Sequence record: OK283619.1
Source of the DNA: Escherichia phage LPEK22
Strand: one strand, 5' to 3'
Length of the DNA: 64,000 nucleotides
Under the pieces are notes generated by a model. The model saw nothing but the letters and a program-made list of their open reading frames with translations. It was not told the origin of the DNA and searched no databases. This document shows positions 51,238 to 56,457 of this stretch, piece after piece. A program made the position numbers and the translations under genes. Each line of letters starts with the position of its first letter. Position 1 is the first letter of the stretch.

Positions 51238-53428
51238 TATAGAATATGCCCCAATTAAAACGGGGTTCAAAATAGACGATGTGAAATTGCGTATGGACCA
51301 AACGTTCATGCGCAAACCTTCTGTGCGTGCTCCCCGAGTCGAGTTAATGCTGACAGATGAACAAGAAGACGAATTCGTTGAATGTTCAATGGACGCGCAT
51401 TACTTCGCCGCCAACTATTACAAGATAACCACGATCGATAAAGGCTTTATCCTTTTCGATATGCATGATTATCAGAAGCAGTTGTTCCATGACTTTCAGG
51501 ACTATCGATTCAATGCGGTCGTCCAGGCTCGTCAGTCCGGTAAATGCGTCCGTGGTGATACTCTTGTTTATGTCTATGATACAATCAGTCAACAAGAGTT
51601 GCATCTCACCATAGAAGAGCTTCACAAGCGCTTCGAAGGACCTAACCATGCTGTGCCACTGAATACCATTGGCAACCACAATAAGTTTGTAGACAGCCGT
51701 TTCGGGAAACGATATTTTGTTGAGTCCGACACTGGCTGGGTTCCGGTTATTGCCGCTCATAAAACGAAAGAATACGCTGAATACGTTGTCAGGACTGAAA
51801 CCGGACGCACAATTCATGTCGCAGATGAGCACATGTTCTTCAATGAATATGGGCGCGAAGTATTTGCTAAAGACATGGAGGCCGGAGATGCCATAATGAC
51901 CCAGGAGGGAATAGAATTCATCTCTGAGATCTGGGAGACTGGTGAGTACCACCACATGTATGACTTGCAAGTCAAGTCCAGCGATCAACGTTATTACACG
52001 AATGGGTTCCTCAGCCATAATACCACGGTCGTGGCTGCGTTTCTTCTTTGGTATGCGATGTTCCACTCAGACAAAGAAATCGCGGTACTGGCAAACAAAG
52101 AGAAACAAGCGATTGAAATTCTTGACCGTATCAGGAAGGCGTATCAGGACCTCCCATTCTTCCTTCAGCAGGGTTGTGAGAAGTTTGGTTCTACACTGAT
52201 AGAGTTTGAGAACGGCTCTAAGATATATGCTTATGCAACGTCTTCGGACTCTATTCGTGGTCGTTCTGTATCTCTCTTGTACGTGGACGAAGTAGCGTTC
52301 ATCGAAAATGACTTTGAATTTTGGGAATCAACATTCCCAGCGATCGCATCTGCTGATACTTCACGTTGTATCCTGACCAGTACTCCGAAAGGCCAGCGAG
52401 GGTTGTTCTACGATATCGTTACAAAAGCCGACCCACGCCATCCACAATACAACGATTTCCATCTTACCGAAGTCCCTTGGTACAAGGTTCCGGCGTACAC
52501 CAAAGACCCTGATTGGGAAACCAAACAACGCGCTCGTCTGGGGGATGCTCGTTTCGATCAAGAATTTGGCATTAAGTTCCGTGGTTCCGTGGGTTCATTG
52601 ATTCCGGCCAAATGCTTAGATAAAATGACGTCCAAGTTGTATCGGGAACCTAATGAATTCACCAAGATTTATAAGGAATACGACCCACAACGTCTCTACT
52701 TTGGGATTGCGGACACTGGGAAGGGGGTGGAAGGAGATTATTCCGTCTTAACAATTCTGGATATAACTGAATATCCGCATGTCATAGCAGCCAAGTACAG
52801 GAATAACACGATACCTCCTATGATGTATGCATACACGATAGCTGATATGTGCACCGAATACGGGGAATGCCCTGTCCTTGTTGAAACAAACAACGACGTC
52901 GGTGGACAGGTTATCACGATCTTGTATCAAGAAATTGAGTATCCAGAGATCATATTCACGTCGACGGATAACAAAGGGACAGGGAAACGGATTGGTGGTC
53001 GTAAACCAGAGCCAGGCATTAACACCAACAGGAAAGTGCGATCTATTGGTTGTGCTAACCTGAAAGCGCTTATTGAGAAAGAAATGTTGGTGATCGAAGA
53101 CCAAGACACGATAGATGAACTCAGCACATTCGTGTTCCGTGGTGCGCGTTATGAAGCAGATGATGGATGCCACGACGACTGCGTTATGCCGTTGGTATTA
53201 TATTCTTGGGCAGTTAAACAAGAATGGTTCAGTGATCTGACTTCTACCAGTATTTCTCAAGACATGAGAAATAGAATGTCTTCGACTGAGTCACAACAAG
53301 TATTCCCGTTTGGTGGTTTAGTCGTGGGAGACACTCCATCTGGAACTGAGCATCTCCCTGGGTTCGGTGGTGTTCAAGTCTTCGACGAACGTTCAGGGAT
53401 GACAATGGACGAGTGGTTTAAGAATTGA
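51218..53428 (+). CDS. terminase large subunit, interrupted by an in-frame mini-intein
   Basis: 736-aa ORF; Walker A split as VVQARQSGK | intein | TTVVAAFLLWYAMF, which rejoins as RQSGKTT; overall T4 gp17-like position. Confidence 0.85.
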   Translation: MAYQKRDIEYAPIKTGFKIDDVKLRMDQTFMRKPSVRAPRVELMLTDEQEDEFVECSMDAHYFAANYYKITTIDKGFILFDMHDYQKQLFHDFQDYRFNAVVQARQSGKCVRGDTLVYVYDTISQQELHLTIEELHKRFEGPNHAVPLNTIGNHNKFVDSRFGKRYFVESDTGWVPVIAAHKTKEYAEYVVRTETGRTIHVADEHMFFNEYGREVFAKDMEAGDAIMTQEGIEFISEIWETGEYHHMYDLQVKSSDQRYYTNGFLSHNTTVVAAFLLWYAMFHSDKEIAVLANKEKQAIEILDRIRKAYQDLPFFLQQGCEKFGSTLIEFENGSKIYAYATSSDSIRGRSVSLLYVDEVAFIENDFEFWESTFPAIASADTSRCILTSTPKGQRGLFYDIVTKADPRHPQYNDFHLTEVPWYKVPAYTKDPDWETKQRARLGDARFDQEFGIKFRGSVGSLIPAKCLDKMTSKLYREPNEFTKIYKEYDPQRLYFGIADTGKGVEGDYSVLTILDITEYPHVIAAKYRNNTIPPMMYAYTIADMCTEYGECPVLVETNNDVGGQVITILYQEIEYPEIIFTSTDNKGTGKRIGGRKPEPGINTNRKVRSIGCANLKALIEKEMLVIEDQDTIDELSTFVFRGARYEADDGCHDDCVMPLVLYSWAVKQEWFSDLTSTSISQDMRNRMSSTESQQVFPFGGLVVGDTPSGTEHLPGFGGVQVFDERSGMTMDEWFKN
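51545..52021 (+). mobile_element. mini-intein (159 aa, Hint domain, no endonuclease domain) in the terminase P-loop
   Basis: Starts CVRGDTLVYVYD (block A with Cys1), internal TIHVADEH (block B-like), ends YDLQV...YYTNGFLSHN with +1 Thr. Confidence 0.8.
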
Positions 53429-53480: not shown

Positions 53481-55376
53481 ATGGCAACTCAAAGCTTCAG
53501 CGTTGCGCCGTCCGTTCAGTGGACTGAGCGTGATGCCACGCTTCAGACGTCCCCGTCCGTTGTTGTTCAGGGCGCGACCGTCGGCAAATTTCAATGGGGT
53601 GAAGTTGAACTTCCAGTGCTGGTGACTGGTGGTGAGACAGGTTTGGTGAAGAAATTCTTCAAACCCAACGACAGTACTGCGACAGATTTCCTTGTGATTG
53701 CAGACTTTTTGTCTTACAGCTCTATGGCATGGGTGACTCGTGTTGTTGGTCCTCTGGCCAAGAACTCTGTCACCAAAGGCCAGACAGCCATCACGATCAA
53801 AAACAAGCTGGATTTTGAAACAGCAAGTCCGTCAGCGTCTATCACTTGGGCTGGTCGTTATCCAGGTTCCCTGGGTAATGATATTGCTATCAATGTTTGT
53901 GACTCCGCTGGATTTCCGACCTGGGAATTCCGCAACAACTTTGCGTACGCACCTCAGTCTGGTGAATTCCATGTTGTGGTTGTAGACAAAGTTGGGCGCA
54001 TTACTGACTCTGAAGGCGCAGTCGGTCAGGTTGATCGTATATCTGTTTCTGGCACGGCAACTGCAGCTGGCACCATCAGTGTGGCAGGTGAAGATATTGC
54101 ATATCTGGATACTGATACTCCGGCCACTTTGGCGACCAAAATCGGCGCGGCGCTGACGGCGCTGACAGATGTTTATTCTTCTGTCGTTGTTAAGTCTAAC
54201 ACTGTCATCGTGACCCATAAAGCTATTGGTCCCCAGACAGTTACTGCTATTGTTCCAGATGATAAGGGGCTGACTGCAACCGCCGTGATTACCACTGTTG
54301 GCGCATCTGGTTCTATTATCGAAAAATACGAACTCATGCAGAACACACAGGGTTCCAAAAAGTCCGATGGCGCGAATGCGTACTTCAAAGATGTCATCAA
54401 TGATACATCAAATTGGGTGTACACCTTCGCTACCGCTCTGGCCGCAGGTGTTGTTGAATTAGAAGGCGGCGTAGACGATTATAACATCAACCGCGTGGCG
54501 GCTATCCAAGTCTTGAACAATGCCGAAGCATATGATGCGAAGCCAGTATTTGCATACTGTGAAGAGTTGATTGAGCAACAAGCATTGATCGACTTATCTA
54601 CTGAGCGAAAAGATACAGTATCTTTCGTATCCCCGCTCCGTGATACGGTTGTTGGCAACCGTGGTCGTGAAATGGATGATGTCGTTGCTTGGCGTGAAAG
54701 CCTTGTTCGCGACTCTTCTTATTTCTTCATGGATGATAACTGGGCATATGTGTACGACAAGTACAACGACAAAATGCGTTGGATTCCGGCTTGTGGTGGC
54801 ACCGCAGGTGTTTGGGCGCGAAGCATTGAAATCGCGGGTATCTACAAATCTCCGGCGTTCCACAACCGTGGTAAATACAACAACTATAATCGAATGGCGT
54901 GGTCTGCGTCTTCTGATGAACGTGCTGTGTTGTACCGCAATCAGATCAACAGCATCGTAACCTTCTCCAATGAAGGCATCGTCCTGTATGGTGACAAAAC
55001 TGGCCTGACCCGCCCGTCGGCGTTTGACCGTATCAACGTTCGTGGCCTGTTCATCATGGCTGAGCAGAACATCGCCGCAATCGCCAAATACTATCTTGGT
55101 GAGAACAATGACGCGTTTACACGTAGTCTGTTCAGCAATGCGGTTCGTCCATATATTCGCCAGCTGGCAAATATGGGCGCGATTTACGATGGTAAAGTCA
55201 AGTGTGATGAAGATAACAACACTGCTGATGTCATTGCGGCAAACCAAATGGTTGCTGGTATCTGGTTGAAGCCTGAGTACAGCATAAATTGGGTGTATCT
55301 TGACTTTGCTGCAGTTCGACCAGATATGGAGTTCAGCGAAATCGAATCCGGTGGCGGCATCGTTGCTGCTTCATAA
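53481..55376 (+). CDS. tail sheath protein (gp18-like)
   Basis: 631 aa from ATG 53481 (AAGGA RBS; MATQSFSV...); follows terminase as in T4; size fits sheath. Confidence 0.65.
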   Translation: MATQSFSVAPSVQWTERDATLQTSPSVVVQGATVGKFQWGEVELPVLVTGGETGLVKKFFKPNDSTATDFLVIADFLSYSSMAWVTRVVGPLAKNSVTKGQTAITIKNKLDFETASPSASITWAGRYPGSLGNDIAINVCDSAGFPTWEFRNNFAYAPQSGEFHVVVVDKVGRITDSEGAVGQVDRISVSGTATAAGTISVAGEDIAYLDTDTPATLATKIGAALTALTDVYSSVVVKSNTVIVTHKAIGPQTVTAIVPDDKGLTATAVITTVGASGSIIEKYELMQNTQGSKKSDGANAYFKDVINDTSNWVYTFATALAAGVVELEGGVDDYNINRVAAIQVLNNAEAYDAKPVFAYCEELIEQQALIDLSTERKDTVSFVSPLRDTVVGNRGREMDDVVAWRESLVRDSSYFFMDDNWAYVYDKYNDKMRWIPACGGTAGVWARSIEIAGIYKSPAFHNRGKYNNYNRMAWSASSDERAVLYRNQINSIVTFSNEGIVLYGDKTGLTRPSAFDRINVRGLFIMAEQNIAAIAKYYLGENNDAFTRSLFSNAVRPYIRQLANMGAIYDGKVKCDEDNNTADVIAANQMVAGIWLKPEYSINWVYLDFAAVRPDMEFSEIESGGGIVAAS

Positions 55377-55386
55377 AAATGACCAA

Positions 55387-55410
55387 CCCCGCTTCGGCGG
55401 GGTTTTCCTT
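55387..55410 (+). terminator. intrinsic terminator CCCCGC-TTCG-GCGGGG
   Basis: Hairpin followed by TTTTCCTTT. Confidence 0.6.
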
Positions 55411-55434
55411 TGTCTTATTGATTTGAGTTATTGA

Positions 55435-55893
55435 ATGATATACGCATACAAAATTGAAACGATAACTAATGGAAAGGTCTACATCGGTGTGACCAATCAC
55501 CCACAACGAAGATATGATCAGCATTTTGCGAATGCTTTTCATCATGGAGTCCAAAGTGAATTGTATGATGCTATGCGTAAGTATGGAACATCTGGATTTA
55601 CTTTCGTTGTAATTGCTCAGACCGATGAAGTCCATAAATGGGAATTAGAGAAGCAACTCATCGCTCAATATAATTCTTATGAGATGGGTTACAACATGAA
55701 TAAAGGCGGTAATGATGGAAGTCATATGCTGGGTAAAACTGCAGCAAAATTGACATCCACAGGTGAACACATTGGTCTTGTTTCTCTCATAGATCCCCGT
55801 TGGGAATTGTGTGAAATCGAACCTGTTTCAAGTAATGTTCATCATGGTTTCGATCTTTCTTCCATGAAGATTAAAAGATTGACGACTAATTAG
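55435..55893 (+). CDS. GIY-YIG homing endonuclease (free-standing)
   Basis: 152 aa; N-terminal IYAYKIETITNGKVYIGVTNHPQRRYDQH matches the GIY-(N10)-YIG motif with conserved Arg; inserted between sheath and tube genes. Confidence 0.75.
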   Translation: MIYAYKIETITNGKVYIGVTNHPQRRYDQHFANAFHHGVQSELYDAMRKYGTSGFTFVVIAQTDEVHKWELEKQLIAQYNSYEMGYNMNKGGNDGSHMLGKTAAKLTSTGEHIGLVSLIDPRWELCEIEPVSSNVHHGFDLSSMKIKRLTTN

Positions 55894-55923
55894 AATTGTG
55901 TACTCTTATTTGGAGATATAAAA

Positions 55924-56457
55924 ATGGCGACAGTCAATGAGTTTCGCGCAGCCATGTCACGAGGGGGCGGCGTACAACGCCAACACCGCTGGCGTGTGAC
56001 TGTAAACTTTCCTTCTTTTGTTGCTGGTTCCGACACAATTCGTGACGTGTCCTTGCTGGCTGTAACCACCAACACCCCAACAGGTCAGCTGGGCGAAATT
56101 CTGGTGCCCTGGGGTGGTCGTGAACTTCCGTTCCCAGGGGATCGTCGTTTCGAAGCGCTTCCTGTGACGTTCATTAACGTGGTGAACAACGCTCCATACA
56201 ATGCTTTTGAAGTGTGGCAGCAATTCATCAACGGTAGTGAAAACAACCGCGCCAGCGCGAATCCAGATGATTATTTCCGTGATATCATCATGGAACTTCT
56301 GGACGCGAATGACAACGTGACTAAGACATGGACTTTACAGGGCGGCTGGCCTCAAAACCTCGGCCAACTGGAACTCGATATGTCGGCAATGGACTCTTAC
56401 ACACAGTTCACTGTCGACTTGCGTTATTTCCAAGCCGTTTCTGACAAGTCATTGTAA
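55924..56457 (+). CDS. tail tube protein (gp19-like)
   Basis: 177 aa; position after sheath; C-terminal GQLELDMSAMDSYTQFTVDLRYF resembles recalled T4 gp19 C-terminus. Confidence 0.6.
   Translation: MATVNEFRAAMSRGGGVQRQHRWRVTVNFPSFVAGSDTIRDVSLLAVTTNTPTGQLGEILVPWGGRELPFPGDRRFEALPVTFINVVNNAPYNAFEVWQQFINGSENNRASANPDDYFRDIIMELLDANDNVTKTWTLQGGWPQNLGQLELDMSAMDSYTQFTVDLRYFQAVSDKSL

What the first reader, a model, noticed from the sequence alone, without database searches (positions are those of the whole stretch)
55435..55893. Free-standing GIY-YIG homing endonuclease between tail sheath and tail tube genes
A 152-aa ORF with a textbook GIY-YIG N-terminus (YAYKIETITNGKVYIGVTNHPQRRYDQH) sits in the sheath-tube intergenic space, directly after the sheath terminator. 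Together with the terminase intein, two selfish elements lie within 4 kb in the most conserved part of the virion module.
Basis: partly seen in the sequence, partly recalled or inferred. Interest (0 to 1): 0.6.

Follow-up and report, generated by a model that had tools for sequence, protein, structure and literature searches.

The report
Known GIY-YIG homing endonuclease, sheath–tube gap
The 152-residue gene between the tail sheath and tail tube genes is a real GIY-YIG homing-type nuclease gene, but it has been annotated at this spot in about 200 Vi01/CBA120-like phages since 2010-2011, so it is ordinary.

Summary

- **Identity.** ORF 55435-55893 (+) matches Pfam GIY-YIG above threshold and PHROG 5123 end to end. 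Its model superposes on the I-TevI catalytic domain, and all catalytic residues are intact.
- **Prior annotation.** The window is a Kuttervirus (Ackermannviridae) phage. The same gene, 97-100% identical, lies at the same place in about 200 GenBank phages. Kutter et al. 2011 described it as CBA120 orf195, a "putative homing endonuclease".
- **Setting.** It lies between the sheath terminator and a late-promoter-like motif (ACTAATTA) that overlaps its stop codon.
- **Variable junction.** Across the family the sheath-tube gap takes at least six forms: empty, this short gene, a longer paralog with a helix-turn-helix tail, both in tandem, a reverse-strand Hef-like gene, or a reverse-strand GIY-YIG/NUMOD3 gene. 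Sequence divergence in the flanks tracks the cassette type.

Three points go beyond the annotations:
- The short form lacks the helix-turn-helix domain of its paralogs.
- It keeps one copy of a roughly 34-residue "DPRW-TGEI" unit that has no Pfam or NCBIfam model.
- It is under purifying selection (dN/dS about 0.09) and has diverged in step with its flanking genes.

Cleavage, target site and mobility are untested.

The parts
51545..52021 (+). Coding region of the 159-residue mini-intein inside the large terminase gene (TerL residues 110-268). It is the second selfish element named in the finding, not part of the endonuclease gene.
   Evidence: Cys1, a C-terminal His-Asn and a +1 Thr, inserted in Walker A. 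Pfam Intein_splicing scores 27.3 bits, below its cut-off. Solved inteins match at E=8e-4. The insertion is exactly absent from Bue1 TerL.
53481..55376 (+). Tail sheath gene (gp18-like, 631 codons from the ATG used in the CBA120 and moki annotations). In relatives with a different cassette, its last 100-600 bases carry divergence linked to the cassette type.
   Evidence: Pfam Phage_sheath_1C and PHROG 23. CBA120 annotation. Mismatch profile.
55385..55414 (+). Intrinsic-terminator-like hairpin of the sheath transcript (AACCCCGC-TTCG-GCGGGGTT) followed by a T-rich tail.
   Evidence: Terminator scan. RNA fold, centroid -15.2 kcal/mol. A hairpin followed by a T-run lies at this position in every relative shown; Mutine and Menlow annotate a terminator there.
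55425..55427 (+). Weak Shine-Dalgarno-like GAG, 7 bases upstream of the endonuclease ATG. No promoter-like site lies between the terminator and the ATG.
   Evidence: Sequence. Promoter scan found nothing between 55405 and 55434. The Klebsiella and Serratia versions have GGAG here.
55435..55893 (+). Free-standing GIY-YIG endonuclease gene, 152 codons plus a TAG stop. This is the finding.
   Evidence: It is 100% identical to the protein of phages moki, Se_EM1, Se_EM3, SeHz-1 and Liang dang 541.
55435..55710 (+). GIY-YIG catalytic domain (residues 1-92). Catalytic residues are Y5, Y16, R26, H30, E72 and N87.
   Evidence: Pfam match to residues 2-87. Model confidence (pLDDT) above 92. Best structural match is the I-TevI catalytic domain, 1MK0/1LN0. 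These residues are invariant in 80 sequences and align with I-TevI Y6, Y17, R27, H31, E75 and N90; columns from the alignment with I-TevI, the functional roles of these residues from my own knowledge of I-TevI.
55735..55824 (+). One copy of a roughly 34-residue 'A..TGE.LG.V...DPRW.TGEI' unit (residues 101-130), reached through a low-confidence linker (residues 91-100). It is the presumed DNA-binding module.
   Evidence: It is the most conserved stretch outside the catalytic core. Modelled as a beta-hairpin, a turn and a strand, pLDDT 85-87. The same unit occurs in 4-7 tandem copies in metagenomic nuclease-like proteins. No Pfam, NCBIfam or PDB sequence match.
55885..55892 (+). ACTAATTA, a late-promoter-like motif for the tube gene. 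It overlaps the last two sense codons and the stop codon of the endonuclease gene.
   Evidence: All 10 + strand copies of ACTAAWTA in the window lie within about 55 bases upstream of a plausible gene-start ATG. The total is 12 against 4.3 expected. The motif region is shared by all cassette types at the right-hand boundary.
55912..55916 (+). GGAGA ribosome-binding site of the tube gene.
   Evidence: Sequence.
55924..56457 (+). Tail tube gene (gp19-like, 177 codons).
   Evidence: PHROG 45 at E=6e-57. Pfam Phage_T4_gp19 at 25 bits, below its cut-off. Annotated as such in relatives.

Best explanation
The ORF encodes a free-standing homing-type endonuclease of the I-TevI/Seg kind.

**Architecture (shown or predicted).** An N-terminal GIY-YIG catalytic domain is joined by a flexible linker of about 10 residues to a single small beta-hairpin module, the 'DPRW' unit. 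A short basic tail follows.

**Position (shown).** The gene sits as a cassette in a transcriptional gap. It lies downstream of the sheath terminator and upstream of the tube gene's own late-promoter-like motif, which overlaps its stop codon.

**Expression (inferred).** It has no promoter-like site of its own and only a weak ribosome-binding site. It is therefore probably made in small amounts, late in infection, by read-through of the sheath terminator.

**Action (inferred).** When the phage co-infects a cell with a relative that carries a different allele at this junction, the enzyme cuts the other genome near the sheath-tube junction. The break is repaired from the endonuclease-carrying genome. 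The gene and some hundreds of bases of flanking virion-gene sequence are copied across, by intronless homing with marker exclusion. The phage's own genome escapes because it differs at the target.

**History (shown).** The gene was present before Kuttervirus and Taipeivirus split, and selection on the protein has maintained it since.

Nuclease activity, target site, expression route and mobility are not shown.
For: **Enzyme**
- Pfam GIY-YIG is above threshold.
- The AlphaFold model built from 80 sequences has pLDDT 85.
- Foldseek's best PDB hits are the I-TevI catalytic domain, probability 1.0, TM 0.82-0.84 normalised to the target, rmsd 1.8-2.0 A.
- Y5, Y16, R26, H30, E72 and N87 are invariant.

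**Cassette behaviour**
- The sheath-tube gap has at least six occupancy states across Ackermannviridae.
- Four of them occur within the genus Kuttervirus alone.
- A Dickeya phage keeps a 36-codon 3' remnant of a long GIY-YIG gene next to a Hef-like gene that displaced it.
- G+C is 37.9% in the ORF, against 48.7% in the sheath gene and 51.3% in the tube gene.

**Locus fidelity**
- Both of the most distant short-form homologs whose contigs I examined (54% and 59% identical, from metagenomes) lie between sheath and tube genes.

**Divergence linked to cassette type**
- Phage 'barely' (long cassette) differs from the window at 25 of the last 96 sheath bases. It differs at only 1-4 per 100 bases over the preceding 900 bases and at 1 of 534 tube bases.
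- S118 (tandem) differs over the last 600 or so sheath bases.
- Mutine (Hef-like) differs in the last 200 or so sheath bases and most of the tube gene.
- moki, with the same cassette, is nearly identical here.
- This pattern is what co-conversion predicts (Edgell et al. 2010, PMC2988022; Barth et al. 2023, PMC10055350).

**Function maintained**
- dN/dS is 0.09-0.10 against Taipeivirus copies.
- dS is 1.25-1.32, similar to the sheath gene (1.24-1.43) and tube gene (1.50-1.62).

**Regulatory setting**
- The terminator, the absence of a promoter and the promoter-like motif at the stop codon resemble T4. There, promoters of essential genes lie inside endonuclease genes and expression is kept low.
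Against: - The protein lacks the roughly 85-residue C-terminal helix-turn-helix-like domain that its paralogs at the same locus carry (Menlow, barely, S118, phiMAM1, SKML-39). Whether one 30-residue module gives enough sequence specificity for homing is unknown.
- dS equal to that of the flanks indicates long vertical inheritance rather than recent spread.
- None of the Kuttervirus junctions I saw (about 120 distinct records across the listings, out of 270-439 matching records) was empty. The empty sites are in distant genera. A present-day naive target within the genus is therefore not documented.
- The linked divergence tracts could come from ordinary recombination.
- The papers I read report no cleavage or mixed-infection data for this protein or its close homologs.
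Confidence: 0.6

Rival explanations
1. A retained but no longer mobile nuclease. In this reading it derives from a longer I-TevI-like homing endonuclease, having lost the helix-turn-helix domain. It is inherited vertically and kept because it benefits the phage. Possible benefits are cutting or nicking DNA of competing co-infecting relatives without copying itself, or stimulating local recombination.
For: - Menlow and P0010 carry a short-type N-terminus (E=1.3e-52 to the short-form profile, positions 3-137) followed by the helix-turn-helix tail. This is what an untruncated ancestor would look like.
- dS equals that of the flanks, and dN/dS is about 0.09.
- About 208 of the roughly 270 related records carry the gene at the junction, and none of the Kuttervirus junctions I saw was empty.
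- The tube promoter-like motif overlaps the stop codon, so only a precise deletion would be tolerated.
Against: - It cannot be told apart from an active homing endonuclease by sequence.
- The junction is clearly still being exchanged among close relatives.
- Phages that lack the gene (barely, Mutine, Se-J, Dickeya phages, Bue1) were all isolated and propagated, so it is dispensable.
- The direction of change, truncation or gain of a helix-turn-helix domain by Menlow, is not resolved.
Confidence: 0.3
2. A GIY-YIG nuclease with no homing role and a general function in infection, in the manner of T4 endonuclease II (DenA). That enzyme is a short GIY-YIG protein that nicks unmodified host DNA. The T4 comparison is from my own knowledge.
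For: - The protein is small (152 residues) and has no recognisable large DNA-binding domain.
- Phages of this group have hypermodified thymidine (my own knowledge). That would in principle allow self and non-self DNA to be distinguished.
Against: - The closest sequence and structure relatives are I-TevI and intron or free-standing endonucleases. These are PHROGs 5123, 314, 7168 and 19446, TIGR01453, and 1MK0/1LN0. No endonuclease II structure appeared among the hits.
- The gene is missing from many family members.
- It lies in a late structural operon behind a terminator, whereas host-DNA breakdown is an early function.
- Every homolog whose location I examined sits at one junction, which suggests site-specific residence rather than a housekeeping gene.
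Confidence: 0.07
3. A decaying pseudogene, a chance ORF or a structural protein.
For: It lacks the C-terminal domain of its paralogs, and its ribosome-binding site is weak.
Against: - dN/dS is 0.09-0.10 at dS about 1.3.
- 66 columns are invariant across nine sequences that are 54-95% identical to the window protein, including the region outside the catalytic core.
- The length is conserved at 151-156 residues across genera.
- The Pfam and PHROG matches are strong.
- Every consulted record that names a function for it calls it an endonuclease, not a virion protein; others say 'hypothetical protein'.
Confidence: 0.03

Closest known systems
The same gene in other Ackermannviridae: CBA120 orf195, the GIY-YIG endonuclease of Vi01 and Det7, PHROG 5123, and RefSeq 'homing endonuclease with GIY-YIG motif'
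   Same: It has the same length and the same position between sheath and tube genes. Protein identity is 97-100% within Kuttervirus, about 81% in Taipeivirus and 59% in Miltonvirus phiMAM1. Kutter et al. 2011 list it as one of two putative homing endonucleases of CBA120.
   Different: Nothing of substance; the window carries another copy. Five other phage genomes encode a 100% identical protein.
The longer GIY-YIG endonucleases at the same junction (207-245 residues): barely gp021, S118 gp151, phiMAM1 gp053, SKML-39, Menlow gp185, Dickeya Coodle and XF4
   Same: They share the GIY-YIG domain and one DPRW unit, the same insertion site and strand, and the same right-hand boundary at the tube promoter-like motif.
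   Different: Identity over the shared region is only 36-50%. They carry an extra domain of about 85 residues resembling the helix-turn-helix tail of I-TevI, which the window protein lacks. In some genomes both genes are present in tandem; the stop and start codons overlap in S118 and KpS110 and lie one base apart in phiMAM1.
I-TevI (T4 td intron endonuclease)
   Same: The catalytic domain fold and catalytic residues agree. The overall plan is also the same: a catalytic domain tethered by a linker to DNA-binding elements.
   Different: I-TevI is encoded in an intron. Its 245 residues include a zinc finger, a minimal helix and a helix-turn-helix domain (my own knowledge). The window protein is free-standing, has 152 residues and a different small module. 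Sequence identity is about 24%, and the NCBIfam group I intron endonuclease model scores 47 bits against a cut-off of 56.
T4 Seg endonucleases, in particular SegD, the name used in the CBA120 record
   Same: They are free-standing GIY-YIG genes placed between conserved virion genes. Intronless homing and marker exclusion are established for SegA, B, C, E, F and G.
   Different: Similarity to T4 SegD is generic only: 28% over 69 residues, pairwise E=5e-4. T4 segD lies between genes 23 and 24 on the opposite strand, and the T4 gene 18-19 gap is empty. It is not an ortholog of SegD.
Hef-like endonuclease F-LimVIII of Dickeya phage LIMEstone1, and the equivalent genes of Mutine and Ds3CZ
   Same: It occupies the same sheath-tube junction. 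The 2012 LIMEstone paper already recorded it as a free-standing homing endonuclease upstream of the tail tube gene.
   Different: It is an unrelated protein of 591-596 residues (DUF7487 plus a DUF559/MTES_1575-type restriction-endonuclease-like region) on the opposite strand.

Membership tests
GIY-YIG nuclease superfamily (Pfam PF01541) | Profile match above the curated threshold | tested here: met
   42.2 bits against a gathering score of 22.6, E=1e-10, residues 2-87 matched to profile positions 2-78 of 78.
GIY-YIG nuclease superfamily (Pfam PF01541) | Catalytic residues present: the two Tyr of GIY and YIG, plus Arg, His, Glu and Asn | tested here: met
   Y5, Y16, R26, H30, E72 and N87 are invariant in the 80-sequence alignment. 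They align with I-TevI Y6, Y17, R27, H31, E75 and N90 (residue roles from my own knowledge of I-TevI).
GIY-YIG nuclease superfamily (Pfam PF01541) | Alpha/beta fold of the GIY-YIG domain | tested here: met
   The predicted model has pLDDT above 92 over residues 1-92. Best PDB matches are 1MK0 and 1LN0, TM 0.82-0.84 normalised to the target, rmsd about 2 A. UvrC N-terminal domains come next. This rests on a prediction, not an experimental structure.
Free-standing homing endonuclease gene (Seg-like, intronless homing) | A separate ORF between genes, not inside an intron or intein | tested here: met
   The ORF has its own ATG and stop within the 547-bp sheath-tube gap. The flanking genes are intact and full length.
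Free-standing homing endonuclease gene (Seg-like, intronless homing) | Presence or absence, or replacement, at one locus among otherwise collinear relatives | tested here: met
   The junction is empty in Bue1, VP-1 and T4. It holds other cassettes in barely, Se-J, Mutine, Ds3CZ and SKML-39, and a tandem pair in S118, phiMAM1 and KpS110.
Free-standing homing endonuclease gene (Seg-like, intronless homing) | A sequence-specific DNA-binding region tethered to the nuclease domain | tested here: inconclusive
   Only one DPRW unit of about 30 residues and a 22-residue tail follow the catalytic domain. The helix-turn-helix domain of the paralogs is absent. DNA binding by the unit is inferred from its tandem repetition in other nucleases, not shown.
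Free-standing homing endonuclease gene (Seg-like, intronless homing) | Co-conversion of flanking markers with the gene | tested here: inconclusive
   Divergence tracts of 100-600 bases in the sheath 3' end, and in the tube gene for Mutine, go with cassette type. This is consistent with co-conversion but also with ordinary recombination.
Free-standing homing endonuclease gene (Seg-like, intronless homing) | Site-specific cleavage of the allele that lacks the gene, and preferential inheritance in mixed infection | not testable with these tools
   This needs enzyme assays and phage crosses. No such data appeared in the papers I read.
T4 SegD orthologs (the label in the CBA120 record) | Specific sequence similarity to SegD beyond the shared domain, and an equivalent genomic position | tested here: not met
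   BLASTP gives 28% identity over 69 residues within the GIY-YIG domain only, E=5e-4. T4 segD lies between genes 23 and 24 on the opposite strand.
Group I intron endonuclease (NCBIfam TIGR01453) | Score above the curated cut-off | tested here: not met
   47 bits against a cut-off of 56.05. Only profile positions 5-93 of 215 match, which is the catalytic domain. No intron context.

The most novel reading that the evidence does not exclude
The short form may not be a mobile element in transit. It would instead be a minimal nuclease kept by selection since before the Kuttervirus-Taipeivirus split. In this reading it recognises DNA through a single copy of a roughly 34-residue 'DPRW-TGEI' repeat for which I found no Pfam, NCBIfam or PDB sequence match. 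That repeat would be a new modular DNA-binding unit of phage nucleases, used as beads on a string in 4-7 copies elsewhere. The phage would use the nuclease mainly as a weapon in competition among co-infecting relatives at a junction that has been invaded at least five separate times.
Probability: 0.25. Interest if true: 0.5.

Novelty: already known. Interest (0 to 1): 0.25.

Why it matters
For this window it matters little. The gene is a correctly recognised, previously annotated selfish-type nuclease gene in a well-sampled phage genus.

The wider picture has some value:
- **A natural test bed.** One short intergenic gap between two highly conserved virion genes holds at least six alternative contents across about 270 sequenced relatives, with divergence in the flanks tied to the content. 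Such a series could be used to study how homing endonucleases compete, displace one another and move virion-gene segments between phages used for Salmonella, E. coli and Klebsiella biocontrol.
- **A candidate DNA-binding module.** If the DPRW repeat binds DNA in a modular way, it would add a building block to the known nuclease-associated DNA-binding modules.

Tried and rejected
1. **Single-sequence structure prediction** gave pLDDT 43 and was not usable. It was replaced by the model built from 80 sequences.

2. **Short form as an internal deletion of a long form.** I first read the shared 3' sequence ACTAATTAGAATTGTG as a relic of the long gene's last codons. I dropped this as proof because the shared sequence contains the ACTAAWTA motif found upstream of nine other genes in the window. 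It is more simply the tube gene's promoter region, which both ORFs run into. The domain comparison with Menlow and P0010 still favours truncation but does not prove it.

3. **A relic of the long gene upstream of the short gene in short-only Taipeivirus phages.** One manual alignment suggested it. MAFFT instead aligned that stretch with the long gene's own 5' leader. The result is ambiguous and I make no claim.

4. **Paralogs within the window.** A profile search of all six-frame ORFs found none.

5. **Sequence matches for the DPRW unit.** Pfam, NCBIfam and PDB sequence searches found nothing above noise. The only hit was a weak, sub-threshold match to the YlmC/YmxH family.

6. **G+C dip as evidence of foreign origin.** The dip is real (0.37-0.39) but not unique. 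The portal gene's 3' end dips as low, so I treat it as weak support only.

7. **Orthology with T4 SegD** was rejected.

8. **One literature search failed** because a search term was too short.

Full report
**What is at the coordinates**

ORF 55435-55893 (+) has 152 codons, an ATG start and a TAG stop. It fills the 547-bp gap between the tail sheath gene (stop at 55376) and the tail tube gene (ATG at 55924).

The neighbouring genes are those of a T4-type virion module: large terminase, sheath, tube and portal. A hairpin at 55385-55404 (AACCCCGC-TTCG-GCGGGGTT) with a T-rich tail follows the sheath stop.

**Where the window comes from**

The sheath-to-tube stretch is 99.5-99.6% identical to Salmonella phages Se_EM1, Se_EM3 and S117, and 96.6% identical to Escherichia phage CBA120. 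These belong to Kuttervirus, in the family Ackermannviridae.

The ORF's protein is 100% identical to that of five other phages and at least 95% identical in 150 records. It is annotated there as 'GIY-YIG endonuclease', 'homing endonuclease with GIY-YIG motif' or, in CBA120, 'putative homing endonuclease SegD'. Kutter et al. 2011 name orf195 as one of two putative homing endonucleases of CBA120 (PMC3184105). The element is therefore already known at the level of annotation.

**What the protein is**

- Pfam GIY-YIG scores 42.2 bits against a cut-off of 22.6.
- PHROG 5123 matches over the full length at E=3.9e-93.
- The NCBIfam group I intron endonuclease model matches only the catalytic domain and falls below its cut-off.
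- A single-sequence model failed. A model built from an 80-sequence alignment has mean pLDDT 85.

The model has four parts:

| Residues | Feature | pLDDT |
|---|---|---|
| 1-92 | GIY-YIG domain | above 92 |
| 91-100 | linker | 59 |
| 101-130 | beta-hairpin, turn and strand | 85-87 |
| 131-152 | tail | low |

The best PDB matches are the I-TevI catalytic domain, with TM 0.82-0.84 normalised to the target, rmsd about 2 A and probability 1.0. UvrC N-terminal domains follow. Y5, Y16, R26, H30, E72 and N87 are invariant across the 80 sequences. They align with the I-TevI catalytic residues.

Similarity to T4 SegD is only generic, at 28% over 69 residues. T4 segD also lies elsewhere in its genome. 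The SegD label should not be read as orthology.

**The C-terminal part**

Residues 98-130 (GKTAAKLTSTGEHIGLVSLIDPRWELCEIE) are among the best conserved in the family. The longer GIY-YIG proteins found at the same junction in other phages share them. Those longer proteins have 207-245 residues. They continue with a further domain of about 85 residues that resembles the helix-turn-helix tail of I-TevI, with weak HTH profile hits. The window protein lacks that domain.

Menlow gp185 and the metagenomic protein P0010 combine a short-type N-terminus with this tail. The short form therefore looks like a truncation, although the direction of change is not proven.

The conserved stretch is one copy of a unit of about 34 residues, with consensus A..TGE.LG.V...DPRW.TGEI. 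It occurs in 4-7 tandem copies in metagenomic proteins. Several of these have GIY-YIG or SegE-like N-termini, and one (P0019) has what looks to me like an HNH-type motif.

The unit has no Pfam, NCBIfam or PDB sequence match. Among cultured phages it appears only in Ackermannviridae, in 230 records. Its tandem use in nucleases suggests a modular DNA-binding element, comparable in principle to the repeated zinc-finger modules that Barth et al. 2023 describe for other phage homing endonucleases. That is inference.

**The junction in relatives**

The sheath-tube gap takes at least six forms:

| Form | Content of the gap | Examples |
|---|---|---|
| a | empty | Erwinia phage Bue1 (77 bp), Vibrio phage VP-1 (10 bp), T4 (116 bp) |
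| b | the short gene alone | window, CBA120, moki, Vi01, Klebsiella and Serratia Taipeivirus phages, two metagenomic contigs |
| c | a long GIY-YIG gene alone, about 20 records | barely, SKML-39, Menlow, Dickeya Coodle and XF4 |
| d | long and short in tandem (stop and start codons overlap in S118 and KpS110; one base apart in phiMAM1) | S118, phiMAM1, KpS110 and about 25 listed records |
| e | a reverse-strand Hef-like gene of 591-596 residues | Mutine, Ds3CZ; recorded for LIMEstone1 as F-LimVIII |
| f | a reverse-strand GIY-YIG/NUMOD3 gene of 264 residues | Se-J |

Ds3CZ still carries 36 codons of the 3' end of a Menlow-type long gene beside the Hef-like gene (92% identity). That is direct evidence of one element displacing another.

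About 208 records cover at least 80% of a junction query that includes the short gene, out of about 270 with megablast-level similarity to the sheath-tube region.

**Signs of exchange and of selection**

Relative to the window, divergence in the flanks tracks the cassette type:

| Phage | Cassette | Sheath gene | Tube gene |
|---|---|---|---|
| barely | long only | 25 of the last 96 bases differ; 1-4 per 100 over the preceding 900 bases | 1 of 534 differs |
| S118 | tandem | diverges over the last 600 or so bases | 8 of 534 differ, all in the last 134 bases |
| Mutine | Hef-like | diverges over the last 200 or so bases | diverges over most of its length |
| moki | same as window | one difference in the last 800 bases | identical |

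This is the pattern expected from co-conversion during homing. Ordinary recombination could also produce it.

Against the Taipeivirus copies the gene shows dN/dS of 0.09-0.10. Its dS is 1.25-1.32, close to the sheath gene (1.24-1.43) and the tube gene (1.50-1.62). At these values dS is near saturation, so the comparison is approximate. The gene has therefore diverged together with its neighbours and is under purifying selection. It is neither a recent arrival nor a decaying relic.

**Regulatory setting**

No promoter-like site lies between the terminator and the ATG. The ribosome-binding site is a weak GAG.

The motif ACTAAWTA occurs 10 times on the + strand. Each copy lies within about 55 bases upstream of a plausible gene-start ATG, including those of the sheath, tube and portal genes. 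The total is 12 matches against 4.3 expected, and 3 of 100 shuffles reach 12.

The copy at 55885-55892 overlaps the endonuclease stop codon, and all cassette types end at it. The cassette thus sits between a terminator and what is probably the tube gene's late promoter. This echoes T4, where promoters of essential genes lie within endonuclease genes and endonuclease expression is kept low. Expression by terminator read-through is my inference.

**Verdict**

TerL residues 110-268 split Walker A, and Bue1 has the uninterrupted allele.

The most likely account is a Seg-like free-standing GIY-YIG homing endonuclease that promotes its own inheritance and that of adjacent virion-gene sequence in mixed infections (confidence about 0.6). 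The main rival is a retained, no longer mobile nuclease (about 0.3). Activity, target and mobility remain untested.

Because the gene is annotated in hundreds of genomes and mentioned in print since 2011, novelty is 'already known' and interest is low. The variable junction and the DPRW repeat are the only parts worth further attention.

Noticed in passing
window 51545-52021 (TerL residues 110-268): A 159-residue mini-intein with no endonuclease domain is inserted in the Walker A P-loop of the large terminase (ARQSGK|C...HN|TT). The TerL genes of the Kuttervirus, Taipeivirus, Limestonevirus and Miltonvirus relatives I looked at have the interrupted length (2208-2217 nt; VP-1 also 2217 nt). Erwinia phage Bue1 has the uninterrupted 580-residue allele and also has an empty sheath-tube junction.
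   Followed up: partly
window 31620, 35231, 37441, 42666, 49181, 53431, 55885, 56492, 58214, 59432 (+ strand): The motif ACTAAWTA lies within about 55 bases upstream of a plausible gene-start ATG at all ten + strand sites, and only two copies lie on the - strand. It is a candidate late promoter for this phage group. Kutter et al. 2011 stated that the late promoter of ViI-like phages had not been identified; I did not check later literature.
   Followed up: partly
proteins P0012, P0016, P0019, P0023, P0028, P0033, P0054, P0109 (metagenomic); window 55735-55824: A repeat of about 34 residues (A..TGE.LG.V...DPRW.TGEI) occurs in 4-7 tandem copies behind nuclease-type N-termini. It has no Pfam, NCBIfam or PDB sequence match; the only hit is a weak, sub-threshold one to the YlmC/YmxH family.
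   Followed up: partly
L005 (Dickeya phage Ds3CZ) 6477-6584: A 36-codon relic of the 3' end of a Menlow-type long GIY-YIG gene (92% identical to P0010 residues 195-230) survives between the reverse-strand Hef-like gene and the tube gene. One homing endonuclease gene has evidently displaced another.
   Followed up: yes
L006 (Salmonella phage Mutine) 4634-4996: Mutine has an extra 120-residue ORF with no Pfam match and its own annotated terminator, between the sheath terminator and the Hef-like gene.
   Followed up: no
L013 (Vibrio phage VP-1) 2490-3691, - strand: VP-1 has an empty sheath-tube junction, but a gene annotated as a Hef-like homing endonuclease lies on the reverse strand immediately downstream of the tube gene. 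Nuclease genes thus cluster around the tube gene in distant family members too.
   Followed up: no
window 53681-54180 (sheath gene bases 200-700): The window's sheath gene differs from CBA120, barely, S118, moki and Mutine by the same 8-16 mismatches per 100 bases in this central segment, while its first 200 bases are identical to all five. The window therefore carries a distinct variant of the sheath's central region, another mosaic block.
   Followed up: no
search hits H9 (MN871475.1 'Pseudomonas phage Pa-sanjiao') and H30 (OR844942.1 'Enterococcus phage Efm 3-10'): Two records named for Pseudomonas and Enterococcus hosts are 96.6-98.6% identical to this Salmonella/E. coli Kuttervirus region. 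The host labels are probably wrong, or the records reflect contamination.
   Followed up: no
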